Shown here: positions 1-64,000 of the stretch, piece after piece
How positions within the stretch are numbered: the stretch's first letter is position 1
Layout of the letters: the number at the start of each line of letters is the position of its first letter
Assembly: GCA_030695905.1 (NCBI GenBank)
Contig: JAUYOL010000036.1
Location: forward strand, 118,814 to 182,813
Direction of reading: 5' to 3'
DNA length: 64,000 nt
Source: Candidatus Omnitrophota bacterium
Lineage (GTDB): Bacteria > Omnitrophota > Gorgyraeia > 2-01-FULL-45-10
Notes under the pieces: generated by a model
What the model saw: the letters and a program-made list of their open reading frames with translations, nothing else
Told to the model about the DNA's origin: nothing
Databases searched by the model: none
Translations under genes and position numbers: made by a program

Positions 1-667
1 GACTGGTATATATAGCCGCGTACGGCGCCCGGCGTCCGATATCGTCAAAACAATGCCAATTATGCGCTCGGTAAAGATTCATCGGGAGCAGATCCCATGC
101 CGCGATCGGAATTCCGATATCCAGATTCTTGATCAGCGCCGCTCTCTGATTATTTCTTATCATGCCCCCTTCAGAAAACCATAGGCCGGGAACATGCGAA
201 AACTCATTTTTTCCTGATTTCAAAACACCTATCAGGATCTCTAATGTAAGCGGCCCTTCCCCTTCAATAGCAAAATCTACGCTCTCTTCTTCCAATGTCT
301 GCTTGGGCAATGCGGTCGGATGAAGCCCGCCGATAGCCACTTTGACAGCTGTATTGTCCTTTATCGCCTTACAGATCCTGCCGGCAATGGTCATGTTCTG
401 AGTAGACGCTGATGGCTGCGAGCCATATACAATTACGGCAGCTAATAAAGGATTTAGCTTTTTGACTCTTGCCGCCGTTTCTTCTGGGGTAATATTCTCG
501 GCATTAGCATCAATTATCGCGATCGTGTGCTTATTGTTCCTTAAATAGGCGGCTATTACAGCGGCCCAAAACGGAGGCTCGATCGCGGAATAGTCCTGCC
601 CCATATCCTGATAGACCTGTTTCCTATCGCCTGGATTTATCAATACAATATCAATTCTATCAGGCAT
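1..667 (-). CDS. Cobalamin-binding radical SAM protein, N-terminal part only (start ATG at 667, continues off the left edge). The translation MPDRIDIVLINPGD...AVKVAIGGLHPTALP has a B12-binding-domain look
   Basis: Hand translation of the minus strand from 667 gives an open frame to position 1. It contains GG-H-T-x-P, the same motif shared by the other six B12-rSAM genes here. The start overlaps the transketolase-C stop as TAATG. The radical SAM core itself is off-window. Confidence 0.55.
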   Translation of the reverse strand, partial: MPDRIDIVLINPGDRKQVYQDMGQDYSAIEPPFWAAVIAAYLRNNKHTIAIIDANAENITPEETAARVKKLNPLLAAVIVYGSQPSASTQNMTIAGRICKAIKDNTAVKVAIGGLHPTALPKQTLEEESVDFAIEGEGPLTLEILIGVLKSGKNEFSHVPGLWFSEGGMIRNNQRAALIKNLDIGIPIAAWDLLPMNLYRAHNWHCFDDIGRRAPYAAIYTS

Positions 668-1623
668 TAGTGTTGTCCCAATAACGCTTTAACATCTTTT
701 GCGATACTATTTTCACCCAGCTTGTTCAGTTCGTGCAGGTAATCCCTGCTTCCGATATCAAAAACATAGGAATCGTTAAAGCCGATATTTTTTAACCTTA
801 TCGGAGAATTGTTTTTATTTAATAAGTGCAAAATAATGCTGTCAAGCCCGGCCTTGTTAATAAACCCTTCCTCAAGAGTTAAAACATATCTATAATTTTT
901 TAACGCATTAAAGAGCGGGCCTTCATTTAAAGGTTTCAGCATGAAAATATCTATGAGCCCGATATCTATGTCTTCCTGGCTCAATTTTTCTACTACCCGC
1001 AATGCTTTATGGGTCATATATCCCGTAGAAACAAGACATAAATCTGTACTCTTTTTTAATTCACTGAATCCGCTTTCGATATCGGCCTTTTTATAAATTG
1101 AAGGAAGCGGTTTACCGTCAAACCTGAGATACTTTGGCTTTTTCACCTTTATCGAATAGTCCACAAATCTTTCAGTTAGCACCCAGTCGCTTGGAGAGAA
1201 TATTTCTATGTTCGGCAATACCCTCATTATAGAAATATCCTCGAGGCAATGGTGCGTCGGGCCCGAAACATCGTAACTTAAGCCAGCCCCCACCCCGACC
1301 AGATTAACATTTACATCTTTAAGCTGCGACTGCATCGACAGATTGATCCTGATCTGTTCATAGGGGCGCATTGTCAGAAATGGCGCTATGGCATAGGCAT
1401 ATACCGTAAATCCCTCCAACGCTAATCCTGTTGAAATATTGACAAGGTCCTGCTCGGCAATGCCTACATTGATAAACCTGTCTTTAAAAGAGCTTCTTAA
1501 CCTGTCGAGTTTTGGAGAGCCAAAATCAGCACAAACAAAAAATATGCTTTTGTCACTCTCCATGCGGCTAGAGAGTTCTTCAATAAAAACGTCCCGCATT
1601 GTCTTTAAATTTTCTTTTTTCAT
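667..1623 (-). CDS. Transketolase, C-terminal (pyrimidine-binding) subunit of a split transketolase
   Basis: 318 aa. The GIAEQDLV motif and overall pattern are typical of the transketolase C-terminal section. It overlaps the N-terminal subunit gene by 4 nt. Confidence 0.8.
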   Translation of the reverse strand: MKKENLKTMRDVFIEELSSRMESDKSIFFVCADFGSPKLDRLRSSFKDRFINVGIAEQDLVNISTGLALEGFTVYAYAIAPFLTMRPYEQIRINLSMQSQLKDVNVNLVGVGAGLSYDVSGPTHHCLEDISIMRVLPNIEIFSPSDWVLTERFVDYSIKVKKPKYLRFDGKPLPSIYKKADIESGFSELKKSTDLCLVSTGYMTHKALRVVEKLSQEDIDIGLIDIFMLKPLNEGPLFNALKNYRYVLTLEEGFINKAGLDSIILHLLNKNNSPIRLKNIGFNDSYVFDIGSRDYLHELNKLGENSIAKDVKALLGQH

Positions 1624-2453
1624 TCTAACCCGGATACCAACGTATCGACCTCATCGGCCGAAAGATTTTTAATATGGCTTAAAGAATCTGTTTCAAGCCT
1701 GGCCACGCCCTTACCCTTAACGGTATTAGCGATCAAAACCTTTGGCCTCTTATTATCCGTTTCTTTAAAATGCCGCAGAGCATTACAAAGCTCCCCCACA
1801 TCATGGCCATTTACTTTTTTAGCGATCCAGCCAAAGGCCTCGAACTTCTTTTCCAGCGGAGCCAGGTCAATTATATTTTTGCAATAATCCAGCATGCATA
1901 CTTTATTATCATCCACGATAAGTACCAGATTATCCAGCTCATGCTCCGATGCGAACATTACCGCTTCCCATATCGAACCTTCATAGAGTTCTCCATCTCC
2001 GACCAACACAAATACTTTCTCTTTACGTTTCTTTCTTTTCAGGCCCAGGGCCATGCCGCAGCCGACGCCTAAACCATGGCCAAGAGAACCATTGACAGTT
2101 TCAAATCCGGGTATGATAGCATCCGGTATGCCTCCTAAAATGCATCCGGCCTTACAGACATTATTCAGGTATTCCTTAGGAAAAAATCCTAAATCCGCCA
2201 GTACGGGATAAAAAGAAACCGCGCCATGGCCCTTGCTGATTATAAACCTGTCCCTGCCTTCCCACGAAACATTCTTGGGATCAAAACTTATTACCTTGCC
2301 ATAATACAGCACGGCGAATATTTCAACTGCTGAAAGCGAAGAAGCAAGCCTTGTCTCCTGGGCAACCTTATGGATCTTCAGCGTTTCTTTCCTGACCCAT
2401 TCGGATTTTTCTTTCAAAAATTTCAATTTACTATATTTATCTGACATTGCCAT
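1620..2453 (-). CDS. Transketolase, N-terminal (thiamine-diphosphate-binding) subunit
   Basis: 277 aa. ThDP-binding motifs GHGAVSFYP, GSLGHGLGVGCGMALG and VGDGELYEGSIWEA. Confidence 0.8.
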   Translation of the reverse strand: MAMSDKYSKLKFLKEKSEWVRKETLKIHKVAQETRLASSLSAVEIFAVLYYGKVISFDPKNVSWEGRDRFIISKGHGAVSFYPVLADLGFFPKEYLNNVCKAGCILGGIPDAIIPGFETVNGSLGHGLGVGCGMALGLKRKKRKEKVFVLVGDGELYEGSIWEAVMFASEHELDNLVLIVDDNKVCMLDYCKNIIDLAPLEKKFEAFGWIAKKVNGHDVGELCNALRHFKETDNKRPKVLIANTVKGKGVARLETDSLSHIKNLSADEVDTLVSGLE

Positions 2454-3390
2454 ATATGTTGTTGGAGATAATTTTATACCCCTTTATCAGCTCTCTTATT
2501 CCCATATCGAGGGAATGGACCGGTTTAAAACCTGCCTTTTCTATTTTCTCATTTGATACGATATAATCCCGCTTATCGGGATCCTGCCCGACCTGAGATT
2601 CCATATATACAAAATCAGGGATATGTTCTTTTATCTTTGCGCATAGTTCTAACTTTGAAAGATTCGCATCGGACAGGCCGACATTATAAGCCTCATTCTT
2701 CATTTCAGAAAACTTTTCCATTGCATGCATAAAAACGCGCGCCACATCGCGCACATGAATGTAGTTTCTCCTAAAATGGCCCTCAAATACAACTACAAAC
2801 CTGTCATTTACCGCTCTGTAGGTAAAATCATTTACCAGTAAGTCGATCCTCATCCTTGGCGATACGCCAAAAACAGTAGCGAGGCGAAAACTTATTGAAT
2901 TTCCCCTATCAAGGATTATCTTTTCAGCCTCCATCTTCACCCTGCCATACAGGGTAAGCGGGTTTAACGGGCTTTTTTCCGTACAATGTATATCCTTCTG
3001 GCCGATGCCGTAGCCGCTGTTCGTAGTAGGCATGATTATTCTTTGCTCTTTGGATGCAAGTTTTGCGATCAGGCCTATGGCATCTCTGTTTATTGTCACG
3101 GCTCCGGTCTTATCCCTGTTACATAACGGTGCGCCGACCAAAGCTGCAAGCGGAATAATATAATCGGCATCTTTAAGAAGCGGTTTTAACACGGCTTCGT
3201 CTCTGGCGTCCCCTCTTACGACATCAAAGCCTTTATAAGTACAGCAATCCAGTAGCGAGTTTTGGCCATACATGAAATTATCCAACACCGTAATCTTATA
3301 TCCTGACTTTAGCAGCTCTGGAATCAAAGCTGATCCGATGTAACCTGCGCCGCCTGTAACTAAAATACTTTTTCCGGTTTCCTTCACCAT
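2437..3390 (-). CDS. NAD-dependent epimerase/dehydratase (extended SDR)
   Basis: N-terminal Rossmann motif ILVTGGAGYIGS; YGRVK (YxxxK) catalytic motif. Confidence 0.7.
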   Translation of the reverse strand: MVKETGKSILVTGGAGYIGSALIPELLKSGYKITVLDNFMYGQNSLLDCCTYKGFDVVRGDARDEAVLKPLLKDADYIIPLAALVGAPLCNRDKTGAVTINRDAIGLIAKLASKEQRIIMPTTNSGYGIGQKDIHCTEKSPLNPLTLYGRVKMEAEKIILDRGNSISFRLATVFGVSPRMRIDLLVNDFTYRAVNDRFVVVFEGHFRRNYIHVRDVARVFMHAMEKFSEMKNEAYNVGLSDANLSKLELCAKIKEHIPDFVYMESQVGQDPDKRDYIVSNEKIEKAGFKPVHSLDMGIRELIKGYKIISNNIYGNVR

Positions 3391-3420: not shown

Positions 3421-4209
3421 TTAAGTATATCTGACAAGAACATCTTCTCTTCTTTTAACCAGCGCCTTTGGGTTTTCTATCAGATCCGTGGCGCTCCAGG
3501 CATCAACGCAATATTGTTTCATATAATCGTAGTTAAAATATCCATAACCGCCATCTCCCCACCTGTCGCCCCATGAATTCTTGAATTTAAACAGCTTCTT
3601 TGGATCATCATATCCGATAACGCATATGGCATGACCACCCTGATATATCTCTTTTTTCTTTGGCATAGGAATCAGCCCTGTTTTGGCGGCCTTTTTTGTA
3701 AACCACGATTCATAGACGTCGACCCCTGCCAAAAATGGGCCATTGATCACAAGGCTTCTTTTCATATCCGGCATGGTCTTTAAGCGGGCATAGGCCATTA
3801 TCTTATATTTTACCGCTGCCTTACCAGAGCCTGTTTTCGGCTTATCTGACTGATGCGGCCGGTACGGCCAGTAATTTTCAGGCGGCGTGCCGTAATTCAA
3901 TAATATTTTCATGGCCACCCTCGGATACGTACCATCCTCTTCAGGGCTGCCATCATATTTTTTGCATAGCTGGTAAAGATATCTAGGTGAAAGCGAAATT
4001 AAATTCTTGTATTCTTTTGTATCCTGATATTCTTTCATGCCGACCACACTCGCGAACGCCACGCAAGTGCCTTCGTCCCCTTGACTTCTAACAGGTGTCA
4101 TGTTTTCAGTATAATCGATGTTGGGCGGCAGTGGAATCGGCGGCAGGACCAAGCCCATCGGAATATCACGCAAATCGCGGGGATCTTTTAAACAGCCTAA
4201 CCTACGCAC
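3421..4209 (-). CDS. Papain-like (C1A) cysteine peptidase domain protein with no signal peptide or prodomain
   Basis: QGDEGTCVAFAS matches the papain Cys motif QGSCGSCWAF. GGHAICVIGYDD supplies the catalytic His and NSWGDRWGDGGYGYF the Asn-Ser-Trp. The N-terminal 40 aa are Pro-rich with no hydrophobic leader. Confidence 0.65.
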   Translation of the reverse strand: MRRLGCLKDPRDLRDIPMGLVLPPIPLPPNIDYTENMTPVRSQGDEGTCVAFASVVGMKEYQDTKEYKNLISLSPRYLYQLCKKYDGSPEEDGTYPRVAMKILLNYGTPPENYWPYRPHQSDKPKTGSGKAAVKYKIMAYARLKTMPDMKRSLVINGPFLAGVDVYESWFTKKAAKTGLIPMPKKKEIYQGGHAICVIGYDDPKKLFKFKNSWGDRWGDGGYGYFNYDYMKQYCVDAWSATDLIENPKALVKRREDVLVRYT

Positions 4210-5503
4210 CTTCCTCCTTAAGGGCTGTCTTTTGAACCGCTATGATCAAACCCATCATAAACCACATTAAATTCGCTAATTGTAAGGCGTAAAAATTAAC
4301 ATCGAAAAAGCTATGCACTAAAAATGCGAATAATCCCGTTAATAACCCTGCCAGGATGCAGCCGTAAAATGTATCTTTAATTTTTCTCACATTTGTAATA
4401 GAGGCCTTGAACAAACTTACTATGACAAAAATGAAAGAAAGTAATCCAACGATCCCTGTCTCAGCCGCCATTTGAAGATAGGAATTGTGGGGATAGATCC
4501 CAGCCTCTAATAGGCCGCTTTTATAACGAGGCGCTACGATAGAATATGCGTTTAACCCGCAACCAAAAACGGGAAAGTCCCTGATGATCAATAGTGCCTC
4601 CCGCCATAGATTGGTCCTGACAATGTCCATATTTTGCATTATCAGGACGAGACTCTGCTTTATAGCAAATACAGGGTCCTGTCCTTCGATAGTCATATGT
4701 ATAAAAAACGGGATAGCGATAAGCGATGCCAGCAATATAAAAACTATGCTGATTAAAAATATTCTATTTTTTTTAACCACCATGTTAACTATCATGAAAA
4801 ATATCGCTGCAAAAGCAAGCCCCGTCCAGGCACCCCTTGACCGCGTCAGTACAAGACACGCCATTAATGCGCTCGATAGGCATATTATCAATACACCGGC
4901 TAAAAACCACAATATAACAGGTATGGCTTTCTTCGGTTTATTGATTATCAGCGCATAAAAGATGCCGTACAATAACGGCAACATTACTATGAGCCACGCA
5001 CCAAAACCGTTGGCACTGGAAAAGGAGGCTGTAATCCTGCCGGCTTGCGGATATTTTCTTAAAAAATCCCCCACTGTTGTCACATATTGAAAAATGCCGT
5101 CTGCGCCTATAAGCAGCATAGACAAGACCATGGTAACCATCACTGCATTCAGCTTTTTTCTATCGTTTATAATCTCTGCTACTATAAAATACAACACCAC
5201 TCCCTTGAGTAGCTTAGAGAAAAATCCTCTTAGGCTTAAAGAAATAGAGGTGCTAAGAAGCACCGATAGAAATGCTGCTATTATAAATAAATATACCGGG
5301 AGATTTAATTTTGTATCAACCGGTTTAAATATTCGTATCAACGAACTCCGCGAATCATAAGATAGCGCCCTATTTAAAATCCATAATGCAAAAGCAACCG
5401 CAATGCATATCTCTACCGCTGATTTTGAAAATGGCAGAGTAAATATCATTACCGATAAAGCTAACACTGTCAGCCAGCTAACCCATTCTCTAACTATCGC
5501 CAT
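4202..5503 (-). CDS. O-antigen ligase/polymerase family membrane protein (Wzy_C-type)
   Basis: About 10 predicted TM helices. YPHNSYLQMAAETGIVGLL matches the Wzy_C (O-antigen ligase) signature H-N-x-Y-L...E-x-G. Confidence 0.6.
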   Translation of the reverse strand: MAIVREWVSWLTVLALSVMIFTLPFSKSAVEICIAVAFALWILNRALSYDSRSSLIRIFKPVDTKLNLPVYLFIIAAFLSVLLSTSISLSLRGFFSKLLKGVVLYFIVAEIINDRKKLNAVMVTMVLSMLLIGADGIFQYVTTVGDFLRKYPQAGRITASFSSANGFGAWLIVMLPLLYGIFYALIINKPKKAIPVILWFLAGVLIICLSSALMACLVLTRSRGAWTGLAFAAIFFMIVNMVVKKNRIFLISIVFILLASLIAIPFFIHMTIEGQDPVFAIKQSLVLIMQNMDIVRTNLWREALLIIRDFPVFGCGLNAYSIVAPRYKSGLLEAGIYPHNSYLQMAAETGIVGLLSFIFVIVSLFKASITNVRKIKDTFYGCILAGLLTGLFAFLVHSFFDVNFYALQLANLMWFMMGLIIAVQKTALKEEGA

Positions 5504-7349
5504 TATATTTTCCGTTCGGCTTGTAAGTAGGCACCATCTCTTTTATTTTGGCTAAGACCTTTTCTTCGTCCATTAAATTAGCCAGTCTTTCCAGTGTCTT
5601 CATGTCTTTGCGCAATTGAAGAGCGTCGAAATTATTTGGTTGCGCAATATAAATCTTATCGTGTTTTGTAGCCTTGTTATGCTCAATGTCCAAAAGCATT
5701 TCCTCCATCATCTTTTCTCCGGGCCTTAAACCGATAAATTTAATCTCTATATCCTTGTCTGGCTCCAGCCCGGACAACGTTATAAGATTTCTTGCAAGAT
5801 CCGCTATTTTTATCTGTTCGCCCATGTCAAGGATGAGCACTTCGCCGCCCTTACCGATAGCGCCTGCCTGCATAACAAGCTGAGCGGCTTCACTTGCCGT
5901 CATAAAAAATCTTTTAACATCGGGATGCGTTACTGTAAGCGGTTTCCCGGCCGCTATCTGCTGCTTGAATATAGGTACCACGCTGCCGCTGGAGCCGATT
6001 ACATTACCGAACCTTACAGCCATGAACTTTGTCCTCGCGGTCTTGGCCTTTGACTGTATCATCATCTCGGCTATCCGTTTTGAGGCCCCCATGGTGCTTG
6101 TAGGATTTACCGCCTTATCCGTAGATATCATTACAAACTTCTCCACTCCGTAATGCTCTGATGCATAAACAAGATTTCTTGTTCCAATGATATTGTTTTT
6201 TATGGCCGCGATGGGATTCCCTTCCATGAGCGGCACATGTTTATGCGCAGCGGAATGAAAAACTATATTAGGCCTATATTTAGAAAATACGCTCTTCAAT
6301 AGCCCTATGTCTTTTATGTCACCGATAATAGTTTTAAATGACATATGGGGATAATTTGCCTTAAGCTCCATCTCTAAAAAATATAAATCGTTCTCGTTTA
6401 AATCATATAATATTAATCGGCCGGGATTAAACTTTGCTATTTGCCGCGACAATTCTGACCCTATAGTGCCGGCAGCGCCTGTTATTAAAACAACTTTGTT
6501 CTTTAATAGAAAGCTTATATCCTGTGTATTTATATTGACAGTTTCCCTGCCCAAGAGATCTTCAGGTCTTACATCTCTTATATGTTTTATCGTTACCTCT
6601 CCGGTTAATATCTTATGAATTTCCGGCATGGTCTTGATCTTCACTTCTGTCTTTTCGCATCTTGAGACGATATCTCTTATTGTTCTACCGCTAGCGGAAG
6701 GCATGGAAATGATCACTTCTGATATATTGTGGTTTTTGATGGTATCTTTTATATCATCGATCTTACCTAAGACTTTTACGCCGTGTATGCGAGAATTTAG
6801 CTTACTTGGGTTGTCGTCGATAAAACCTACCGGCTGATATATTCTTTTTTTTGCATTAATCATCTCACGAACAACCATTTCACCTGATGCGCCGGCTCCT
6901 ATTATAAGAACTCTTTTGAGATTATGGGATTTAAGTTGCCTGAATTTAATCAAAACTCTAGGAGAAAATCTTGAGCTACCAATGAAAAAGAGGCATATCA
7001 GATAATCGATCAATAGTACTGACCGGCTCATCTCTATGCGTTGCGTAAAAAATGCTACCGCAATAAGCGATAAGCTGCCCATCGTCACAGATTTTAATAT
7101 ATTTATTGCTTCGCTTATGCTCGCATAGCGAAATGACCATTGATACATCCCAAAGATAGCAAGTAGAATAATCCTGAGAATGGTTGCCCACATCATAAAA
7201 TACAGGCATGGAGATACAATAATGGCGGTGAGTCGCCAGTCAAATCTGATCGCAAAGGCTAAGAACATCGACAAATTCACTAACACCAGATCGACGGCCA
7301 GCATTATTGGTATTCGTAATCTATCGAATATATCTTCTATATTATGCAT
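5490..7349 (-). CDS. Membrane-anchored NDP-sugar 4,6-dehydratase/epimerase (CapD / PglF / WbpM family)
   Basis: 619 aa. Four N-terminal TM helices followed by two Rossmann domains (LIIGAGASG; VLITGAAGTIGSEL). Length and architecture are typical of PglF/CapD. Confidence 0.8.
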   Translation of the reverse strand: MHNIEDIFDRLRIPIMLAVDLVLVNLSMFLAFAIRFDWRLTAIIVSPCLYFMMWATILRIILLAIFGMYQWSFRYASISEAINILKSVTMGSLSLIAVAFFTQRIEMSRSVLLIDYLICLFFIGSSRFSPRVLIKFRQLKSHNLKRVLIIGAGASGEMVVREMINAKKRIYQPVGFIDDNPSKLNSRIHGVKVLGKIDDIKDTIKNHNISEVIISMPSASGRTIRDIVSRCEKTEVKIKTMPEIHKILTGEVTIKHIRDVRPEDLLGRETVNINTQDISFLLKNKVVLITGAAGTIGSELSRQIAKFNPGRLILYDLNENDLYFLEMELKANYPHMSFKTIIGDIKDIGLLKSVFSKYRPNIVFHSAAHKHVPLMEGNPIAAIKNNIIGTRNLVYASEHYGVEKFVMISTDKAVNPTSTMGASKRIAEMMIQSKAKTARTKFMAVRFGNVIGSSGSVVPIFKQQIAAGKPLTVTHPDVKRFFMTASEAAQLVMQAGAIGKGGEVLILDMGEQIKIADLARNLITLSGLEPDKDIEIKFIGLRPGEKMMEEMLLDIEHNKATKHDKIYIAQPNNFDALQLRKDMKTLERLANLMDEEKVLAKIKEMVPTYKPNGKYNGDS

Positions 7350-7403: not shown

Positions 7404-7964
7404 TCAGTGGTGCACGCCTTCTCCCTGAATTGATTTGATAATAGTCATAACTAAAATCTTGCCATCCAATAGAAGAGATTTGTTTTTCAGATAATACTCA
7501 TCAAATTCGACCTTAACCGGTATGGGGAGGCTATCTCTTCCGTTAACCTGCGCCCATCCCGTAACCCCCGGGGAAAGCTTATGTATATTTTTTTTAGTCC
7601 TTAACTCTATCAAATCGTACTGGTTAAATAATGCCGGGCGGGGGCCTACAAAAGTCATGTCCCCAGATATTATATTGAACAACTGCGGAAGCTCGTCTAG
7701 ACTAAATTTACGCAAAAATTCACCGAACGGCGTAATATAGTTATCCGGATTTTGAAAGAGATGAGTTGCGACAGTCGGTGCGCCAAGACGCATAGTGCGA
7801 AACTTTGGCATCTTAAATATTTTATTATCAATACCTACCCTATCCGACCAATATAAAGCAGGCCCTTTAGAGGTAAGCTTGATCACCAAACCGATAATGA
7901 GCATTGGGATGCTTAAAATAACTAATAAAAAACCCGCCATTATAAAATCAAAAACGCGTTTCAT
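7404..7964 (-). CDS. Undecaprenyl-phosphate sugar phosphotransferase (small PglC/WbaP-C-terminal-type initiating transferase)
   Basis: 186 aa with a single N-terminal TM. Conserved DELPQLFN and FVGPRP motifs of the bacterial sugar transferase family. Confidence 0.85.
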   Translation of the reverse strand: MKRVFDFIMAGFLLVILSIPMLIIGLVIKLTSKGPALYWSDRVGIDNKIFKMPKFRTMRLGAPTVATHLFQNPDNYITPFGEFLRKFSLDELPQLFNIISGDMTFVGPRPALFNQYDLIELRTKKNIHKLSPGVTGWAQVNGRDSLPIPVKVEFDEYYLKNKSLLLDGKILVMTIIKSIQGEGVHH

Positions 7965-9402
7965 TATGCCTTTTTAATTGTCGCGACAAGCATTTAGAGG
8001 AGATAAACATGCTTGTCATGTGCTTTACGAAAAAATAATTCAACTGCACCCAGTCCACTTTTATGTAGCTATAGAACTTATAGGCATTAAACATTGCTTT
8101 AAAAAGCCTATTACGCGGGAGCCGTATCAGCTTTTTTATTATAGGGATAAGAAAAGGAAACTGCACGGCGATTGCAAACAGATCATGCAGGTTGATAATT
8201 TCATTCTTATGTACTAATTTAAGCGGCGTGGAAGAATGATAATCCGGCTCTATACGATAATCGATATCCAAAAGGCCATTATCGGCCGCAAGTCTGTACA
8301 GCTCTGTCCCGGGATAAGGCTGGATTATAGAGATCCAGCTATAAGCAGGCTTGCATTTTACGTTCAATTCTACCGTTTCAAAAGCATCTGATAATGTCTC
8401 CTTAGGCAAGCCTATCATATTAAATGTTTCGAATTTGATATTATATTTCTTAAGCAAAGCACAGGCTTTAATGATCTGTTCATTGCTCATGGGCCTTTTC
8501 AGCACATCCCTCCTCAACCTTTCGCTGCCTGATTCTATGCCGATAACAACAAGAAAGCATCCGCTGTCCTTCAGTCCTTTGGCTATGCTTTCTGTCACCA
8601 GATCAACTCTGACGTGACAGCAATACGGTAAATTCACATCTTTCTTATATCTTTCAACAAACTCAGAGAACCATCTTTTATCAATTATGAATATATCATC
8701 TACAAAACGGACCGCTTTTATCTTGTACCGGGCTCTTATCATCTTCAGCTCCGCCATCATATTATCTATGTTCCGTTTTCGTACATACGTTCCCTTGCCA
8801 CTGTAGTAATCTTTAAGCTCCTTATTAAAACAATAGGTACAGCTATAAGGGCAGCCCCTGCCGGATATAACGTCCAATACCCCGTAATTTTTGTACTCAT
8901 AATATTCATTGATCAGGCTCCTGTCGGGAAAGGCTATGTTGTTAATATCGGCAAGCGGCCTTATCTCATTTTTTATGATCTGATCATTGACCTTAACGCA
9001 AAGGTTCGGGATCCGGGAAAAATCTTTGCGATCATTGATATTACGCAGTAATTCCATAAAAGCATCTTCTCCTTCGCCCCTACAGATAATATCTACGCCT
9101 GGTTCTTTAATAAATTCCGGGTAAAAAGTGGGATGCGGGCCGCCGAACACAGATAAAAAAGAGATTCTTTTTTTCAGCAAAGTATTAATCTTAAGGTATC
9201 TCTTTTCGGTGCCGGTAGTCACTGAATAGCAAATGACATCCGGACGGAATGCAACCGCTTTGTTTAAATATTTTCTATCCAGGTTCGGTATGAGCAACGA
9301 TGTTTCATGGCCTTCGTTTTTGGCGACAGAGATGAGATATAATAATCCTAACGGATCTCTGATGTCTGCGCTTGGTTTTAGATAAATAAATAATACTCTC
9401 AT
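7948..9402 (-). CDS. Cobalamin-binding (class B) radical SAM enzyme
   Basis: N-terminal B12-binding domain (VFGGPHPTFYPE). The radical SAM cluster motif CPYSCTYC (CxxxCxxC) lies in GRGCPYSCTYCFN. Confidence 0.8.
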   Translation of the reverse strand: MRVLFIYLKPSADIRDPLGLLYLISVAKNEGHETSLLIPNLDRKYLNKAVAFRPDVICYSVTTGTEKRYLKINTLLKKRISFLSVFGGPHPTFYPEFIKEPGVDIICRGEGEDAFMELLRNINDRKDFSRIPNLCVKVNDQIIKNEIRPLADINNIAFPDRSLINEYYEYKNYGVLDVISGRGCPYSCTYCFNKELKDYYSGKGTYVRKRNIDNMMAELKMIRARYKIKAVRFVDDIFIIDKRWFSEFVERYKKDVNLPYCCHVRVDLVTESIAKGLKDSGCFLVVIGIESGSERLRRDVLKRPMSNEQIIKACALLKKYNIKFETFNMIGLPKETLSDAFETVELNVKCKPAYSWISIIQPYPGTELYRLAADNGLLDIDYRIEPDYHSSTPLKLVHKNEIINLHDLFAIAVQFPFLIPIIKKLIRLPRNRLFKAMFNAYKFYSYIKVDWVQLNYFFVKHMTSMFISSKCLSRQLKRHNETRF

Positions 9403-54115: not shown

Positions 54116-56077
54116 TTAGTCTGTCGCTTCTGCTCTTTCAGACCACTCCTGAAACATCAAGATGGTCCATAGAAAATACTGCCAATTTCGTTTGCCGGAA
54201 AGGTGCTCTTTCCATCGCGTACGAATAAATTGCGCGTCAAACAACCCTTCCCGCTGCAAGCGGGATTCGTCCAGCAAGTTTTGAGCCCAATCTTTAAGCC
54301 TGCCGCGCATCCAGTCACCTACAGGAACACCAAAACCCATCTTGGGCCGCTCGATGAGCGACTTAGGAATATACTTATATAACAGGCACCTTAACATCCA
54401 TTTGGTCTGTCCATCACGCATCTTCATGGATAGAGGCAGACTCCATACCAGGTCGATGATCCTATGATCGAGAAAAGGGATCCTCGTTTCAAGGCTGTTG
54501 AACATGGCCGCACGGTCGACCTTGACCAGTATGTCATCCGGCAAATAAGTCATGCTATCCATATACATCATCTGGACCTTATAGTCCGCGAAGGTTTCTT
54601 TCAGCCCTGTTTCGGTAAGCCATGTACCGGGCTCCCTGGCATCGATAACCACGCGATCCGGGTCGGCGATCTCAGATACCAGGCTGTAGTAAAGAGACCC
54701 GACACCATCGACATTCTCCAGGCGTGTAGAAAGCTTTTCCAGTTTCTCGCCCATATTGGATGGTAAGGTGAAAAATTTGCCGATATACCTGAAAACGCGA
54801 TCCCAGGTCGATGGCGCAATCGCCTTTATCAAACGCCCGGCAGACTTCCTGATCGCGAACGGGACCCTGGAAACATTTTTCCACATATCGGCCAATGCGT
54901 AGCGGTTATATCCGCAAAATAATTCGTCTCCGGCATCGCCGGACAATGAGACCTTGACATATTTGCGCGCCATTTGAGAGATCAGAAAAGTAGGTATTTG
55001 TGAGGAATCCGCAAACGGCTCGTCATACATGCTGCCCAGCTTGGGGATAACCTGCATAGCTTCCGCAGGCGACACATATTGCTCGGTATGATCCGTGCCA
55101 AGGTGCCCGGAAACGGCTTTTGCGTATTCGGCTTCGTTGTAACCCATCTCTTTAAACCCAACAGAAAATGTCTTGACCGGACGGCCTGACTGGGCCTGCA
55201 TCAACGCAACGACCGTTGAAGAATCTATCCCCCCTGAAAGAAAAACACCTAAAGGCACATCCGCAACCATCTGCAGCTTTATCGCGCGTTTCAGCCGCTC
55301 CTCAAGTTCGGATATGGCATCCGCTTCATTTCCCGCAAACGGTCTCGCGATACCGTTCGCCGCGACCTCAGACAATCTCCAGTAGGCCTCAGGTTTAGCC
55401 GAACGCAGCGTATCAGGCCCGTGCGCGGCCTTAAAACTTATATAATGGCCCGGCAGGAGCTTGAATATGCCTTTATAAATAGAGTAAGGCGCAGGAATAT
55501 AGCAATGTCTCAAATACAGACAGATAACGTCCCTGTCGATCTCTCCGACAAAGTCCGGATGGCGTTTAAGTGCCTTCAATTCGGAGCCAAAAATAAGCGT
55601 GCCTTTCTGAAACCCGTAATAAAGCGGCTTTTCGCCGATGCGGTCCCGCGCTAGCGTAAGCACTTTTTCCTTACGATCCCAAAGCGCGATAGCGAACATA
55701 CCAACGGTTCTTTTAAGCGTCTGGTCTATACCCCATTTTTCAAACCCGGCCAATAATGTTTCCGTATCCGAATGGCCGCGCCAGCCTTTATCGTTGTTCA
55801 GCTCTTGCCTCATCTCCAAGTGATTATAGATCTCTCCGTTGAATACAATTACATAACGCCCGGACACGGAGGTCATAGGCTGGTCTCCGGCCGAAGTAAG
55901 ATCAAGTATAGAAAGACGGCGATGCGCCAGCGCGATGCCGGCGTTTTCGTCGGTCCATACGCCGCTGGAATCCGGGCCGCGATGACTTAAAGAATTCGCC
56001 ATCGAAATGCCGATGGAAGCCATTTCCGGATCCTTAAGCGCATTATCTGCCGTAACAAATCCCGTTATGCCGCACAT
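54116..56077 (-). CDS. asnB: Asparagine synthase (glutamine-hydrolysing), AsnB family
   Basis: MCGITGFV N-terminus; LSGGIDSS PP-loop. 653 aa and closer to canonical AsnB than the other paralogue. Confidence 0.8.
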   Translation of the reverse strand: MCGITGFVTADNALKDPEMASIGISMANSLSHRGPDSSGVWTDENAGIALAHRRLSILDLTSAGDQPMTSVSGRYVIVFNGEIYNHLEMRQELNNDKGWRGHSDTETLLAGFEKWGIDQTLKRTVGMFAIALWDRKEKVLTLARDRIGEKPLYYGFQKGTLIFGSELKALKRHPDFVGEIDRDVICLYLRHCYIPAPYSIYKGIFKLLPGHYISFKAAHGPDTLRSAKPEAYWRLSEVAANGIARPFAGNEADAISELEERLKRAIKLQMVADVPLGVFLSGGIDSSTVVALMQAQSGRPVKTFSVGFKEMGYNEAEYAKAVSGHLGTDHTEQYVSPAEAMQVIPKLGSMYDEPFADSSQIPTFLISQMARKYVKVSLSGDAGDELFCGYNRYALADMWKNVSRVPFAIRKSAGRLIKAIAPSTWDRVFRYIGKFFTLPSNMGEKLEKLSTRLENVDGVGSLYYSLVSEIADPDRVVIDAREPGTWLTETGLKETFADYKVQMMYMDSMTYLPDDILVKVDRAAMFNSLETRIPFLDHRIIDLVWSLPLSMKMRDGQTKWMLRCLLYKYIPKSLIERPKMGFGVPVGDWMRGRLKDWAQNLLDESRLQREGLFDAQFIRTRWKEHLSGKRNWQYFLWTILMFQEWSERAEATD

Positions 56078-57198
56078 ATATTGCCTCTGATCTTCCCGTA
56101 AACCGACTCATATTTTTTTACCATAGCGGAAAGGCTGAATCTTTCGCAAACCCGCGATCTCGCATTGCTTCCCAGTTCTCCCGCTTTATCCGGATTACTC
56201 AAGATATAGTCTATCGCGTCCGCTATTGCCTCGGGATCCTTTTCGGGAATAAGTAACCCGTTAAGCCTATTTTCAATTATTTCCGGGACCCCCCCTACAT
56301 TCGTGGCTATAACTGCCTTGCCGGAAAACATCGCTTCGATAATACTAAGCCCAAAACCTTCTTCGAGTGAGGGGTGAACCACGATATCCATTATCGATAA
56401 CAGGTCCGGGATGTCCTTCCTGTACCCTGTAAATATTACCTTCTCTCTCAGGTCAAGCAGGTCTCTTAAGGCAACCAGTCTCTCCTCTAATATGCCGTCG
56501 CCTACAAGCAGAAATTTGACATCCTGCCTTTTCCGGCAGACGATATCGGCAGCACGGATCAAATACTCATGACCTTTTCTCGGATGAAATATACCGACGG
56601 TACCGATTATCTTGACATCATCATCTATCTTCAGTTCGCGTCTGACCTTGGCCCCTGCGTCCATTAAAGGATCAAATCGTTTCAGATCAATACCGTTATG
56701 GATGACCGATATTTTTTTATCGGCGATTCCGTCTAACCGGACTAAGATATCTTTCACGCCGTAAGAGATAGCTATGATATGTTTTGCCCTCTTTAAAACC
56801 CATCTATCCAGGAACCGTTGAAAACTGTTACCGTAAAGATAGAGCATGTTGGAGTAGTGCTTTGTTATCAAAACCGCTGTCTTCCCAGAAAAGATGCCGG
56901 CGAGATAACCTACTATACCTGCATGAAATAGATGGGTATGCAAAATATCAATTTTATTTCGTTTTATGATCTGCACCAGTTTTATAATAGCCGCGGGCAA
57001 ACAGATTATATTGTCGTATCCCAGCGAATAACACTTTTGGCTCAGTTTCTCGATTTCAGCGTGTAAATCACCTCTTTTTTTAAGCGTGCAAAATAACAAC
57101 TCAAATCTTGATCTATCATATTCCCCGGCTATGCCTATAAGTAATTTCTCAGCACCGGCTATTTTAGAGTCTGTCGTAAGATGCAATATTCTTGTCAT
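56065..57198 (-). CDS. GT4-family glycosyltransferase
   Basis: EGFGLSIIEAMFSGKAVIATNVGG (Glycos_transf_1 signature). Confidence 0.8.
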   Translation of the reverse strand: MTRILHLTTDSKIAGAEKLLIGIAGEYDRSRFELLFCTLKKRGDLHAEIEKLSQKCYSLGYDNIICLPAAIIKLVQIIKRNKIDILHTHLFHAGIVGYLAGIFSGKTAVLITKHYSNMLYLYGNSFQRFLDRWVLKRAKHIIAISYGVKDILVRLDGIADKKISVIHNGIDLKRFDPLMDAGAKVRRELKIDDDVKIIGTVGIFHPRKGHEYLIRAADIVCRKRQDVKFLLVGDGILEERLVALRDLLDLREKVIFTGYRKDIPDLLSIMDIVVHPSLEEGFGLSIIEAMFSGKAVIATNVGGVPEIIENRLNGLLIPEKDPEAIADAIDYILSNPDKAGELGSNARSRVCERFSLSAMVKKYESVYGKIRGNICAA

Positions 57199-57211: not shown

Positions 57212-58045
57212 TCATACTTTCTTAGCGACGATGATTATTCCATTCCCGCTCTTATTTACCTTTGCGACGTCTAAAATCATTAGTATCGTAACAAGCGGTT
57301 GAACAAATAAAAAATAGAGTGGGAATAAGGCCAAAAATAGTAACGGGCGAAACTGGCACATGCAGAACAATTCATAACCTAAGGCGCCAAGTTTCCCAAA
57401 AGATATCCGCGTGTCGATAATCTTGAGTTTATTCTTTTCAATGATCCCGGTTATCTCGCTTAAGGCGTACCCTTCCCGGACATGCTCCAGGCTATGCGGT
57501 TTAAAAAAATCGGCATTTCTCAAGAACGGTAGCACTCTTTTTTGGGGACTTGCCGGCACACCAACGATTAAAATACCATCTCTCTTAAGCGCTTTAAAGA
57601 ATGTCGCGACCACGGCATTATCTTTTTCAATATGCTCCAAAACATCCGTGCATAGTATAAGATCGAATTGATTATCCTGCTGCAGGTCAACAAGATCTGA
57701 ATGCCTGGTTTCAATATTAAGATTCTCCCTGTTTATAAACGGCCTAAAATTTTCTATCCTGGACTTATCGATATCAACGGCGCAAATCTTAGCCCGCGGG
57801 AACGCCCTTGACAAATAGTAACTATACTGCCCAAAACCTACCCCGGCATCAAGTATATTCAATGTTTCTTTTTCCCTGCCCTTGAGCGCAGCTTTGAGCG
57901 CGCACTTTACGTACCATTCCGTCAATATATTCAGAGAAAGGTAAAGATAATACCCTTTTCTTATCAACGAATTTTCGGATAACTTTTTCTTAATAAACTT
58001 TTTCATAAGCTCGCGCCAACACCTTGGAATACTCGTTCTGTTCAT
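57212..58045 (-). CDS. Class I SAM-dependent methyltransferase
   Basis: ILDAGVGFGQYSYYL motif I; LILCTDVLEHI. An alternative start at 58006 is possible. Confidence 0.65.
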   Translation of the reverse strand: MNRTSIPRCWRELMKKFIKKKLSENSLIRKGYYLYLSLNILTEWYVKCALKAALKGREKETLNILDAGVGFGQYSYYLSRAFPRAKICAVDIDKSRIENFRPFINRENLNIETRHSDLVDLQQDNQFDLILCTDVLEHIEKDNAVVATFFKALKRDGILIVGVPASPQKRVLPFLRNADFFKPHSLEHVREGYALSEITGIIEKNKLKIIDTRISFGKLGALGYELFCMCQFRPLLFLALFPLYFLFVQPLVTILMILDVAKVNKSGNGIIIVAKKV

Positions 58046-59240
58046 GAAGCGCCGACTTCTCCGGATCCATCAAAGTTAACACCTTTTCGCGGGCATTTTT
58101 ACCCATCTTCTTCCCGTCAGCAGGGCTTGCTAATATGCTGTCTATCCTGTCGGCCAACGCCATCCAGTCCCTGTTAGGCACCAGGTAACCGGTCTCTCCA
58201 TCAACAACAACCTCTCTCTGCCAGTCATAGTCATATGCGATGATCGGCACTCCGGCAAGCGCAGACTCAACCAATGCCCTACCCATGTGCGGTGAAATAA
58301 TAGCTGTTGCTTTAGGTAAAACGGCGGCGATCCACTCTTGAGCGCGGTTGCCGGCAAAGATCACCGCGTCTTCAACCTTCAGCGAGGTTGCCAGGGCCTC
58401 GAGTTCCTTTCTTATCGGTCCGTCTCCGATTATAAGGCCCTTGACGCGGCGCCCCCGCTTGATAAGTTCAGCGACAACGCGGATCATGTCTTCAATGAGT
58501 TTCATTGGAACAAGACGCGATACGGTCGCCAGGACCTTTTCATCCTTTATTCCAAGCCCGGCAAGCTGCGTGTCGCCGTCGGAACGCACGGCCGGTTCCT
58601 GCCAGTGATCCTTGTGTATAAGATTACCGTACCTAAAAACCGTCGCGACATCGGGGCGGCCGCCATTCTCCAGGGCATAACGCATATTGTCCTCATTCGC
58701 TCCCGCTATTAAGTCACAGCGCGGGAACACAAATCTTTCTACGATCTTTTCAATCCAGCGAAACTTGAACAGACGCGGCATCACAGGCTTTCCCGTCAAT
58801 CGAAAAATTTCGTCATATCTGAAACAAGCCCTGACAACCAAAGGCACTCTCAGTCTTCTGGCTAAAAATAATCCCATTAATCCCAGATAATACGGATCGC
58901 CTATGCGCACAACTTTTACCTTTAGCTCTCTGGCCATCTTAAGCAATATCCGCGTCAGTTTAATTTGCGCTAAAAACAGATTTAACGGAGGCGCAAACCG
59001 CCAGGTACGACTAACGCCTACTTTCCCCTCTACGAACAGATGCGAGTCATCAAGCCGAGTGATGACGGGATCACCGAACCTGTTATCGCCAGATTCAAAA
59101 ATTCCGGCCAGCGGATGCACGGAAATGACCTTATCAAAATATCCTGCAAGCCTTCTACTGTCCAGCGCCTGCTCCATACGGTTTTCCCTGAACATCTTTA
59201 GCGTATAAGACATATCCAGGACAAGGATCGCTTTTGTCAA
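57990..59240 (-). CDS. GT4-family glycosyltransferase
   Basis: C-terminal HMGRALVESALAGVPIIAYDYDWQREVV and GETGYLV (Glycos_transf_1). Confidence 0.7.
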   Translation of the reverse strand: MTKAILVLDMSYTLKMFRENRMEQALDSRRLAGYFDKVISVHPLAGIFESGDNRFGDPVITRLDDSHLFVEGKVGVSRTWRFAPPLNLFLAQIKLTRILLKMARELKVKVVRIGDPYYLGLMGLFLARRLRVPLVVRACFRYDEIFRLTGKPVMPRLFKFRWIEKIVERFVFPRCDLIAGANEDNMRYALENGGRPDVATVFRYGNLIHKDHWQEPAVRSDGDTQLAGLGIKDEKVLATVSRLVPMKLIEDMIRVVAELIKRGRRVKGLIIGDGPIRKELEALATSLKVEDAVIFAGNRAQEWIAAVLPKATAIISPHMGRALVESALAGVPIIAYDYDWQREVVVDGETGYLVPNRDWMALADRIDSILASPADGKKMGKNAREKVLTLMDPEKSALHEQNEYSKVLARAYEKVY

Positions 59241-59243: not shown

Positions 59244-60116
59244 TTAGTACCTGCCTATTAATTTCAAATGAAACTTAAGCGGAATTTTCAAAACTATAAA
59301 ACGGTATAAAAGATATAAGGCACTCCTTAACCTTTCAGGGAGCATAGCCGCTACCTTCTTTAATGAATCACTCCTTTTTGATTGCGCGTCTTTTGCGGCC
59401 TGAGCGCCTGGCCACCTTTTTAAATATTGGCCTTGCTGGATAGAGGCATTAAAAGTAGACGTATCCGTTTTTTTAACTACAAAAAACACATAATATATAT
59501 TCTTGCCAAGGCCTCCATAAGAGAGCCTGTCCAGGCATCCCGGCACATATTTATAGGCATCCATTAAATAATTATTCCCGTATCTGGAATATTTCACGAA
59601 TAACGAATCTTTTATTTCCCAGTTATTTGCCGAATAATAATCCCAGAATAATGTCGGTGAAAACATATAAAATCCGTGTTCTACGCAATTCGTTGAAGGC
59701 AAAAAGTGAATTATCCTGCCCCCTGCTTTAAGCATTTTATGGTAATTCTCGAGTACCTTCGGCAGGTTAAATACGTGTTCCGAAGTGCCTCCGTCAAATA
59801 TCAAATCATATTTACCGTGAAGATTGACTGGCACGTCCTTATTTAAGTCATGTATTATTGTGCATTTCTCAAAATCGCTATAATCAAGGCTGTCTATGTT
59901 GTCAAAGCCGGCCGATAAAAATAAATCCACGTCGGTAACGCGAGCGCCCGTGACGGGTTTTTTTAATTCAAAGCCCATATCTTGAGCCCATCTCTTGAAT
60001 ACAAGCGGCGTGACAGGACAGATATCCTGCCTTCCTATGGTCAGCGCATGCCCGGAAAATTTTTCCCTACTACCCTCTCTCATCAAAAGCTTGATTGAGC
60101 CGCGATCAGTACCCAT
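59244..60116 (-). CDS. Methyltransferase-like protein (class I fold, divergent)
   Basis: YDLIFDGGTSEHVFN...MLKAGGRIIHFLP resembles the Methyltransf_11/23 C-terminal half. No clear GxGxG motif. Confidence 0.45.
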   Translation of the reverse strand: MGTDRGSIKLLMREGSREKFSGHALTIGRQDICPVTPLVFKRWAQDMGFELKKPVTGARVTDVDLFLSAGFDNIDSLDYSDFEKCTIIHDLNKDVPVNLHGKYDLIFDGGTSEHVFNLPKVLENYHKMLKAGGRIIHFLPSTNCVEHGFYMFSPTLFWDYYSANNWEIKDSLFVKYSRYGNNYLMDAYKYVPGCLDRLSYGGLGKNIYYVFFVVKKTDTSTFNASIQQGQYLKRWPGAQAAKDAQSKRSDSLKKVAAMLPERLRSALYLLYRFIVLKIPLKFHLKLIGRY

Positions 60117-60118: not shown

Positions 60119-60841
60119 CTATCCCCTATTTTTCAGGCAAATGAACCATTTACCTATTTGCGCGCCGCCTGTCCAGGCAGAATCCAGAATGTATACAACG
60201 TCATGATATTGCTTAAATTTGCTCGCCCACCAGTCCAGGTTGTTATTGAAATAGGACTGACCGGCGCATTTTACCCACCCCTCATTCTTGCCGCTTTCTG
60301 AAACCGGGATCTGATGAAAAGCTGCGTTTTTCACGATTCTGCTCGATTCTTTTATAGCCCTTGAAATGCCTTCTTCGGTAAAATGTTCGATAGACCCGAT
60401 AGAATACGCATAGTCAAAATAATTGTCTTCATAGCCGGTGTCTGTGACATCGCACACCTTAAGCCGCTCTGCCAGTATCCCCTTAGCCACGGCCCTTTCT
60501 ATCAATAAATCGGAAATATCGCATCCGTAGATCACAACTCCGGGAAACTTCTTCGAAAGTATATCGATCGTCTTACCCGTGCCGCAGGCAATGTCTAATA
60601 TCCGTCCGCGACAATTAGCCAGCAGGAATTGAATCTCGTTCCATACCGTTCCTTCGCCCCAATTCTCCAGTTTGTCCGCAAAGGCCTTATTCCAATATAT
60701 GCCTAAGTCCTGATTCGACGGGTTACGCGGCCTTTTTATGCGCCTTGTGATCTTTGAAATAACCCTGTTATTTACAAATTTCAAAGAATCCCACACTACT
60801 GGCGGGCATAGCCGCTTAAAAACTACTTTATAACTTACCAT
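60119..60841 (-). CDS. Class I SAM-dependent methyltransferase
   Basis: ILDIACGTGKTIDIL motif I; YAYSIGSIEHF. Confidence 0.7.
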   Translation of the reverse strand: MVSYKVVFKRLCPPVVWDSLKFVNNRVISKITRRIKRPRNPSNQDLGIYWNKAFADKLENWGEGTVWNEIQFLLANCRGRILDIACGTGKTIDILSKKFPGVVIYGCDISDLLIERAVAKGILAERLKVCDVTDTGYEDNYFDYAYSIGSIEHFTEEGISRAIKESSRIVKNAAFHQIPVSESGKNEGWVKCAGQSYFNNNLDWWASKFKQYHDVVYILDSAWTGGAQIGKWFICLKNRG

Positions 60842-60856: not shown

Positions 60857-61702
60857 TTAAAACTTTTTTGGAACTGAGGACGCTTTCATACGGTTCGAAA
60901 TAGCGTCTTTAAAGCTTGGGGTCACGCACCCTTCCCTTTTGTCCGCCAGCGCCTTACAGCCGGATACGCAATATCTGCAAATGTCTTTTCTTAAATTTGG
61001 CCATGCATCCATAAACCTTTCGGGAAAATCATATTTTGCGTATTCCGCGAGCCCAAACAGCATCGCTATCGGTCCGCAGGTGCCTCCGGGCCAGTAACCA
61101 TATGCATTCAATAATACGCCGCATTCCCGCGGAAGGCTGCACACATCCCATTTAAGCCCGAGGTCCACCGGAGCCGAAAGCACATATATAAATGACTCAT
61201 GCGCTTCTTTAGGCGACGCGATAATCTCTATCTTTTTTTCGTTAAAAGCCCTGTCTATATTAGCGTCAAGCCTGCATTCTTTTAAAGCGCTGCTTGAGCC
61301 GATAATACCGTTTGTATATATCTCTATGCGCGCAAGATTCCCGGGAACCATCAATTCGTAGAAAAGCAGCGATATGAAATCATGCAGCCGCGGGTGTAGG
61401 AAAGGCTCTCCGCCAAGTATCTGTATGCGTTTCAAACGAATATTTTTCTGCCTGACCTGGTTTATGAATTTTTCAATTTGCTCAATTTTCATATCCGCGT
61501 CTTTGAGGTGCGGCAGCCCAAGATTACAGAAACGGTTGCACTTAGAACATAATTTGTTGCAACGATACGTGATTTCAAGCTGTATATATTTGACGCGCCA
61601 ATTCTTATCTAAATTTTGCGCGACAGATACTGATGCGCGGTAAATTTTATGCTTTACCCACGGTACTACCTGCCAGATATTATTTTTATTCTTTAAGGAC
61701 AT
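60857..61702 (-). CDS. Radical SAM enzyme (Cys-rich C-terminus); start uncertain between 61702 and 61912
   Basis: EITYRCNKLCSKCNR carries CxxxCxxC. C-terminal CGPIA...CRYCVSGC...GCVTP. The track ORF starts at 61912 and would overlap the upstream GT2 by 208 nt. The internal Met at 61702 removes the overlap. Confidence 0.6.
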   Translation of the reverse strand: MSLKNKNNIWQVVPWVKHKIYRASVSVAQNLDKNWRVKYIQLEITYRCNKLCSKCNRFCNLGLPHLKDADMKIEQIEKFINQVRQKNIRLKRIQILGGEPFLHPRLHDFISLLFYELMVPGNLARIEIYTNGIIGSSSALKECRLDANIDRAFNEKKIEIIASPKEAHESFIYVLSAPVDLGLKWDVCSLPRECGVLLNAYGYWPGGTCGPIAMLFGLAEYAKYDFPERFMDAWPNLRKDICRYCVSGCKALADKREGCVTPSFKDAISNRMKASSVPKKF

Positions 61703-61704
61703 GC

Positions 61705-62667
61705 CTATCTCCACCATCCGAGCATCGGTTTTATGATCCTTTCGCGGAAAAGGCCGTCGTTCGCCACCCTTGTATTCGGATTGTGCAGCCACCGCCAATA
61801 TATAGCCTCGCCTACACGCTCTTTCGATCCGGCCGGGCATAGTGACCCGGCGGATTTGATTAAAAGTTTTAAAAAAACCTGCCTTGCCTGGTCCTGGATC
61901 AAAACGCCCCATAGTTGAAACTTCCTTAAGAATGATATTCTCGCACCCGCTATCCGGCTAAAATGGTCGCAGAATAATATAAAGAACGGCAGGTACCACC
62001 ATGGCTTATTCTGCCCCCCGAGCGCGGCGCTATAATCCTGTTCGACAGTATTCCATTTGGGGCGCCCGAAGTAAGTAAAAAGTACTTCCGGTACCTGGAT
62101 AAAATCGCCGTAAATAGACAGCTCCTGGATAAACGCCAGCTCCGTCGACATGCTTTTACGCAACATGTGCGTTTGGCGCATCGCCGATGAACGATAAAGC
62201 CCGTAAAGCGCCACTGCCGGAAGCCGCTTCAGGGTTTCGCGGTACCTGCCCGCTAACCCTGAGACGTTCGCGAAGCTGTCAAGAGTGGCGACACGCAACA
62301 GCTCTTCCCTGCCCTCAATATAAGACGCCGTATGCACCTGGCACAGCACCGCACCCGAGGATTGTTCCATCTTCCTGACGCATGCGTTCACAAAAGAACG
62401 CTCCCGTTTATCGTCATGCGCGGCCCACATGAAATATTTTCCTTTAGAGAGCTCAAAAACACGGTTAAAGTTATACAGTATCCCCATATTTTTTTCGGAC
62501 CTGTTGTATTTAATCCTGGGGTCTTTATGCGCATATTCCCGGCAGATCTCAGGAGTCGCGTCCGTAGACCCGTTATCAGAAATGATGATCTCAAGATTAG
62601 CGTAATCCTGTTCCAATAGAGAATCCAGTGCGCGCGATATATGCCTCTCGCCATTAAACACCGGCAC
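61705..62667 (-). CDS. GT2-family glycosyltransferase (annotated start is GTG; conserved N-terminal strand lies upstream of it)
   Basis: (E-P-L-V-S-I-G)-V-P-V-F-N-G-E...ISDNGSTD. The GT2 motif begins in codons upstream of the first canonical start codon. Confidence 0.65.
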   Translation of the reverse strand: MPVFNGERHISRALDSLLEQDYANLEIIISDNGSTDATPEICREYAHKDPRIKYNRSEKNMGILYNFNRVFELSKGKYFMWAAHDDKRERSFVNACVRKMEQSSGAVLCQVHTASYIEGREELLRVATLDSFANVSGLAGRYRETLKRLPAVALYGLYRSSAMRQTHMLRKSMSTELAFIQELSIYGDFIQVPEVLFTYFGRPKWNTVEQDYSAALGGQNKPWWYLPFFILFCDHFSRIAGARISFLRKFQLWGVLIQDQARQVFLKLLIKSAGSLCPAGSKERVGEAIYWRWLHNPNTRVANDGLFRERIIKPMLGWWR

Positions 62668-62678
62668 GCCTATACTGA

Positions 62679-64000
62679 CTAAAGGTTCTGAATTTTTGAT
62701 ATACGCCTCATAATCGCGTTACGGAACAACCTGTTAATCCCGAGTTTCGAGAATAGCACCGCCTTCTGCCCGCCCATCCACGAGATCTCAAGATTAAAAA
62801 CTTCATAACATATGACCCGGTATCTGTAGATCTTCATCAGGGCCTTCATGAGCCGCGGATACATCTTCTGTTTTACAGTAGCCGGATAAATATCTTTAAG
62901 CAACCTGTCAAAAACCTTGCGTGGAAGCTTAACAAAAACAAGCATCACGATCAAGATGTTGGCGAGCGTAGGGGCCAGACAGTGAAAGCTGGAGTTAATA
63001 TCAGGGATCGATATGCCTCGCTCTTTCAGATCGGCAGCAAGCTGCGTATTCGGTATCACCCTTAAGGAAAAGAGATACAACGTAAAAGGCCTTGGCAGGC
63101 CATAGACCAATTCCAAGGTACGTATTATATCATCCCGTGTCTCTATCGGATTATCCAGTATGATGTCGTAGTTTGGTGGTACCATATACGAAGAATATCT
63201 GCCTATAATTTTTGTCGCATCCTGAATGAGGCCCGGCCTGTTAGGCCGTTGATAAAATTTCAGGATATCATCGCTGCCGCTTTGTATGCCCATACGCATC
63301 CGCACAAGCCCCGCCCGTACAAGAATGCTTATCTTCTCTTCGTTCACATACGCGGGTATTATGCCGCCGACCGCGAAAGGCATATTTACTTCTTTTTTCC
63401 ACAGCTCCGCAAATTCCTTCAATATGTTAAGAGGTATCGACATAAACCCGTCATCTACAAAAGTCACAGCCGAAAGATACGGATATTTACTTAATACATT
63501 CTTTATCTCATCGATAATATAGCGCGCTGAAGGGTATCTTATCCTGCCGTATGTAGGGTCATTTTTGATAAATTTCGAGTTGCTGCAATAAGTGCATTTG
63601 TTCGGGCAACCGATAGACCATATAGTTGTATAGAATAGCCCTTTTGCTTTAATGAAATCCTCGCCCCGGAATGGGATAAAACCCCTGCCGGAAACAAATA
63701 ACAACTCGTCGTCCATAAATAAATGGAACGGGAATCCGGACATCTCCTGGGGCGTGTTAAGAGGAAGAAACCCGTTCTTTATTACCACCTCTCCATCCCT
63801 AAACCAAAAATTTCCGATCGAACGGTATGAGCTGCCCTGCTCAATCGTTGATAGCAGCCGCAGAAACACTTTCTCGCCTTCGCCGACACAAACCGCATCG
63901 GCGTGCTTGATCACGTCTTCAGGGCACAGTATCGCATGGACGCCGCCCCAAATGATAAAAAGGCTTGGATTCAAGGTCTTTGCCGCAGCAATAACATTCT
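62679..64000 (-). CDS. Cobalamin-binding (class B) radical SAM enzyme, N-terminus off the right window edge
   Basis: IGCPNKCTYCSNS carries CxxxCxxC. IIWGGVHAILCPE is the end of the B12 domain. The frame stays open from the track start (TTG at 63974) to position 64000, and the upstream residues (NVIAAAKTLNPSLF) still look like B12 domain. Confidence 0.7.
   Translation of the reverse strand, partial: NVIAAAKTLNPSLFIIWGGVHAILCPEDVIKHADAVCVGEGEKVFLRLLSTIEQGSSYRSIGNFWFRDGEVVIKNGFLPLNTPQEMSGFPFHLFMDDELLFVSGRGFIPFRGEDFIKAKGLFYTTIWSIGCPNKCTYCSNSKFIKNDPTYGRIRYPSARYIIDEIKNVLSKYPYLSAVTFVDDGFMSIPLNILKEFAELWKKEVNMPFAVGGIIPAYVNEEKISILVRAGLVRMRMGIQSGSDDILKFYQRPNRPGLIQDATKIIGRYSSYMVPPNYDIILDNPIETRDDIIRTLELVYGLPRPFTLYLFSLRVIPNTQLAADLKERGISIPDINSSFHCLAPTLANILIVMLVFVKLPRKVFDRLLKDIYPATVKQKMYPRLMKALMKIYRYRVICYEVFNLEISWMGGQKAVLFSKLGINRLFRNAIMRRISKIQNL

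What the first reader, a model, noticed from the sequence alone, without database searches (positions are those of the whole stretch)
1..64000. Glycan cluster saturated with radical SAM enzymes (7 cobalamin-binding plus 4 SPASM-like) and 9 methyltransferases
Eleven CxxxCxxC radical SAM genes fall within 64 kb of carbohydrate-biosynthesis genes. They are at 1-667 (partial), 7948, 17327, 24601, 29763, 36861, 41173, 43221, 49624, 60857 and 62679. Seven carry an N-terminal B12-binding domain with the GG-x-H-x-T-x-x-P motif. Class-I methyltransferase genes lie beside or near several of them (pairs such as 17327/16581, 29763/31257, 43221/42301, 49624/48848+48155, and 62679/60857 with 60119/59244).

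Class B radical SAM enzymes are established C-methyltransferases and epimerases at unactivated carbons; GenK, Fom3, TsrM and PoyB/C are examples. One or two per sugar cluster is already unusual, so seven plus four SPASM-type enzymes points to a glycan with multiple radical-installed modifications, plausibly a poly-C/O/N-methylated sugar or nonulosonic acid. The alternative would be a RiPP cluster, but there is no room for a precursor peptide gene.
Basis: partly seen in the sequence, partly recalled or inferred. Interest (0 to 1): 0.85.

Follow-up and report, generated by a model that had tools for sequence, protein, structure and literature searches.

The report
Radical-SAM-rich surface glycan gene cluster
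This window is part of a sugar-coat (surface glycan) gene cluster of more than 80 kb from an uncultured Omnitrophota bacterium; it carries 11 radical-SAM enzyme genes that recur in uncharacterised gene cassettes across many anaerobic phyla, next to enzymes that load sugars onto a lipid carrier.

Summary
All about 56 genes lie on the minus strand with gaps of at most 59 nt.

- **Radical SAM genes:** eleven, at the stated coordinates. Seven have a B12-binding domain (class B). Two have a clear SPASM/twitch domain, one is sub-threshold, and one is a small radical SAM with no SPASM hit.
- **Methyltransferases:** seven solid class I, plus two weak.
- **Source:** a Candidatus Omnitrophota MAG. The cluster continues past both window ends, giving at least 13 radical SAM genes in 80 kb.
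- **Divergence:** the class B paralogues share only 22-34% identity, and none reaches any curated family cut-off.
- **Recurring cassettes:** (a) CDP-glucose dehydratase, cupin, aminotransferase, class B rSAM and GT2; (b) MT-GT2, MT and class B rSAM; (c) an Arn-like set of ArnC-like GT2, N-acyl/formyl transferase, aminotransferase, twitch rSAM, class B rSAM, MT, rSAM and AsnB.
- **Link to glycosyltransferases:** one relative is fused to a polyprenyl-phosphate glycosyltransferase. The small rSAM family is fused to glycosyltransferases elsewhere.

The glycan reading is supported and the RiPP reading rejected. C-methylation is plausible but unproven, because AprD4, HpnJ, BchE and OxsB (non-methylases) are equally close relatives. 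The nonulosonic-acid link is not conserved. I rate this a new variant of a known kind.

The parts
1..667 (-). Class B (B12-domain) radical SAM gene. Only the N-terminal 222 aa lie in the window; the full protein is 489 aa on the source contig.
   Evidence: Pfam B12-binding 67 bits. Full gene is L023 10957-12426, with CPYDCIFC at residue 225.
667..1623 (-). Split transketolase, C-terminal/pyrimidine-binding subunit.
   Evidence: Transket_pyr 85 bits, Transketolase_C 54 bits.
1620..2453 (-). Split transketolase, ThDP-binding N-terminal subunit.
   Evidence: Transketolase_N 111 bits.
2437..3390 (-). NAD-dependent sugar epimerase/dehydratase.
   Evidence: Pfam Epimerase 110 bits.
3421..4209 (-). 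Papain-like C1 peptidase. Its role in the cluster is unknown.
   Evidence: Peptidase_C1 81 bits.
4202..5503 (-). Wzy_C-family 12-TM protein. It could be an O-antigen ligase, a polymerase or an O-oligosaccharyltransferase.
   Evidence: Wzy_C 74 bits. 12 hydrophobic segments. Weak RfaL / O-glycosylation ligase hits.
5490..7349 (-). PglF/CapD-like membrane-anchored UDP-sugar 4,6-dehydratase.
   Evidence: Polysacc_synt_2 390 bits. 4 TM segments.
7404..7964 (-). Small PglC-like initiating phosphoglycosyl transferase.
   Evidence: Bac_transf 194 bits.
7948..9402 (-). Class B radical SAM gene. Its end overlaps the start of the initiating transferase gene by 17 nt.
   Evidence: Radical_SAM 77.5 bits, B12-binding 63.8 bits. 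CPYSCTYC. 35% identical relatives in L002 and L008.
9399..10340 (-). NAD-dependent epimerase/dehydratase.
   Evidence: Epimerase 148 bits.
10345..11463 (-). GT4 glycosyltransferase.
   Evidence: Glycos_transf_1 96 bits.
11460..12878 (-). Polytopic membrane protein with no family hit. Candidate Wzy-type polymerase.
   Evidence: No Pfam or NCBIfam hit. 8 hydrophobic segments.
12866..13906 (-). GT2 glycosyltransferase; last gene of cassette (a).
   Evidence: Glycos_transf_2 96 bits. Co-conserved with 17327 in L003-L008 and L014.
13827..14315 (-). RmlC-like cupin (sugar epimerase or ketoisomerase); cassette (a).
   Evidence: dTDP_sugar_isom 29 bits. Co-conserved.
14269..15393 (-). CDP-glucose 4,6-dehydratase; cassette (a).
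   Evidence: TIGR02622 455 bits, cut-off 278. Co-conserved.
15453..16568 (-). DegT-family sugar aminotransferase; cassette (a).
   Evidence: DegT_DnrJ_EryC1 328 bits. Directly follows the 17327 homologue in 15 related loci.
16581..17417 (-). Probable class I methyltransferase, sub-threshold. The contig's gene call is 249 aa.
   Evidence: Methyltransf_23 24 bits against cut-off 27. ILSVGCGIG loop present. Absent from related loci.
17327..18826 (-). Class B radical SAM gene; head of cassette (a).
   Evidence: Radical_SAM 84.5 bits, B12-binding 79 bits. Best NCBIfam hit is the Sden_1168 family, 300 bits against cut-off 575. 21 related loci in at least 8 phyla.
18823..19569 (-). Unknown 248-aa protein.
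   Evidence: No significant family hit.
19566..20582 (-). Class I methyltransferase.
   Evidence: Methyltransf_25 44 bits, Methyltransf_11 43 bits.
20569..22329 (-). LIC12162-family transferase, an O-antigen-region family.
   Evidence: TIGR04331 402 bits, cut-off 225.
22320..23852 (-). Wzx-type flippase.
   Evidence: Polysacc_synt 61 bits, MatE 53 bits. 11 TM segments.
23871..24629 (-). Short-chain dehydrogenase/reductase.
   Evidence: adh_short_C2 111 bits.
24601..25719 (-). Radical SAM gene with a SPASM/twitch domain, inside the nonulosonic-acid block.
   Evidence: SPASM 57 bits, Radical_SAM 47 bits. C-terminal domain matches the BtrN twitch domain, 4m7t, 45 bits.
25724..26845 (-). WbuX-type N-acetyl sugar amidotransferase.
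   Evidence: TIGR03573 309 bits, cut-off 203.
26851..27549 (-). CMP-sugar (nonulosonate) cytidylyltransferase.
   Evidence: CTP_transf_3 81 bits.
27555..28733 (-). NeuC-type hydrolysing UDP-GlcNAc 2-epimerase.
   Evidence: TIGR03568 423 bits, cut-off 236.
28717..29766 (-). NeuB-family nonulosonate synthase.
   Evidence: Pfam NeuB 243 bits. TIGR03569 359 bits, below cut-off 400.
29763..31250 (-). Class B radical SAM gene.
   Evidence: Radical_SAM 102 bits, B12-binding 70 bits. 421 relatives at E<1e-30. One relative (P0105) is fused to a GtrB/ArnC-like GT2.
31257..33143 (-). Fusion protein: Trm112-like zinc ribbon, 2 TM segments and a class I methyltransferase domain.
   Evidence: Methyltransf_11 59 bits, Trm112p 26 bits. 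Two separate genes in L069, 68% and 73% identical.
33113..35002 (-). AsnB-type glutamine amidotransferase; cassette (c).
   Evidence: Asn_synthase 239 bits. 78% identical orthologue in L069.
35017..36897 (-). Unknown 13-TM membrane protein. Candidate GT-C or flippase.
   Evidence: No Pfam, NCBIfam or PDB hit. TM count.
36861..38030 (-). Radical SAM gene with a twitch/SPASM domain; cassette (c). NCBI calls it 371 aa.
   Evidence: Radical_SAM 74 bits, SPASM 40 bits. Family invariants C51/C55/C58 and C285/C303/C345. Adjacent to DegT in L067, L068 and L069. AF2 pLDDT 90; BlsE has the best reciprocal TM score, 0.61/0.68.
37978..39234 (-). DegT-family aminotransferase; cassette (c), ArnB-like role.
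   Evidence: DegT 163 bits. Orthologues 44-78% identical in L067, L068 and L069.
39253..40248 (-). Hexapeptide-repeat acyltransferase; cassette (c).
   Evidence: Hexapep 44 bits. 46% identical orthologue in L068. Replaced by a Formyl_trans_N gene at the same place in L069.
40253..41146 (-). GT2 of the polyprenyl-phosphate glycosyltransferase type (ArnC/GtrB/AglJ-like), with 2 C-terminal TM segments; cassette (c).
   Evidence: Glycos_transf_2 110 bits. Best NCBIfam hits are AglJ, PgfS, Dol-P hexose transferase, ArnC and PpgS. TM segments. Orthologues 61% (L068) and 77% (L069) identical.
41173..42276 (-). Radical SAM gene with a sub-threshold SPASM-like C-terminus; cassette (c).
   Evidence: Radical_SAM 76 bits, SPASM 19.1 bits against cut-off 21.5. 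Best PDB hit is BlsE, 55 bits. 77% identical orthologue in L069.
42301..43224 (-). Class I methyltransferase; cassette (c).
   Evidence: Methyltransf_23 82 bits. 69% identical orthologue in L069.
43221..44726 (-). Class B radical SAM gene; cassette (c).
   Evidence: Radical_SAM 78 bits, B12-binding 51 bits. Orthologue is 48% identical and adjacent to the ArnC-like GT2 in L068, and 70% identical in L069.
44723..46882 (-). Unknown 10-TM, 719-aa membrane protein.
   Evidence: No family or PDB hit. TM count.
46879..48180 (-). PMT_2-family GT-C glycosyltransferase (ArnT/PMT-like).
   Evidence: PMT_2 30.9 bits, cut-off 26.1. 9 TM segments.
48155..48841 (-). Class I methyltransferase; cassette (b).
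   Evidence: Methyltransf_11 58 bits. Orthologues 30-61% identical in L029, L030, L032 and L037.
48848..49576 (-). Class I methyltransferase; cassette (b).
   Evidence: Methyltransf_11 88 bits. Orthologues 40-58% identical in 7 of 8 loci.
49624..51087 (-). Class B radical SAM gene; cassette (b).
   Evidence: B12-binding 89 bits, Radical_SAM 87 bits. Tight orthologue group of at least 53% identity, including Desulfocarbo indianensis. AF2 pLDDT 88; fold matches TsrM, MgmA, OxsB, AprD4, TokK and CysS.
51107..52432 (-). Degenerate MT-like N-terminal domain fused to an AglJ/Dol-P-hexose-transferase-like GT2; cassette (b).
   Evidence: Glycos_transf_2 76 bits. AglJ 95 bits. 35-59% identical to MT-GT2 fusions in 8 loci. 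The SAM-binding loop is deleted.
52429..53391 (-). NAD-dependent epimerase.
   Evidence: Epimerase 183 bits.
53388..54101 (-). Transglutaminase-core-like protein. Role unknown.
   Evidence: Transglut_core 25 bits.
54116..56077 (-). AsnB-type amidotransferase.
   Evidence: Asn_synthase 386 bits.
56065..57198 (-). GT4 glycosyltransferase.
   Evidence: Glycos_transf_1 155 bits.
57212..58045 (-). Class I methyltransferase.
   Evidence: Methyltransf_25 59 bits.
57990..59240 (-). GT4 glycosyltransferase.
   Evidence: Glycos_transf_1 111 bits.
59244..60116 (-). Methyltransferase-like protein; sub-threshold, with no clear SAM-binding loop.
   Evidence: Methyltransf_12 24 bits against cut-off 30. Sequence inspected.
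60119..60841 (-). Class I methyltransferase.
   Evidence: Methyltransf_25 54.5 bits.
60857..61912 (-). Small radical SAM gene. The likely true start is at 61702 (281 aa). No SPASM domain, but three conserved C-terminal cysteines.
   Evidence: Radical_SAM 29.3 bits against cut-off 29.5. 37 of 38 homologues hit Radical_SAM; 7 of 38 are fused to GT2, GT25 or GT1 domains. 281-aa gene call on the contig.
61705..62667 (-). GT2 glycosyltransferase.
   Evidence: Glycos_transf_2 91 bits.
62679..64000 (-). Class B radical SAM gene. Its N-terminus is cut by the window end; the full protein is 518 aa.
   Evidence: Radical_SAM 61 bits, B12-binding 31.6 bits on the truncated protein. Full gene is L024 6607-8163, carrying PF02310 and PF04055.

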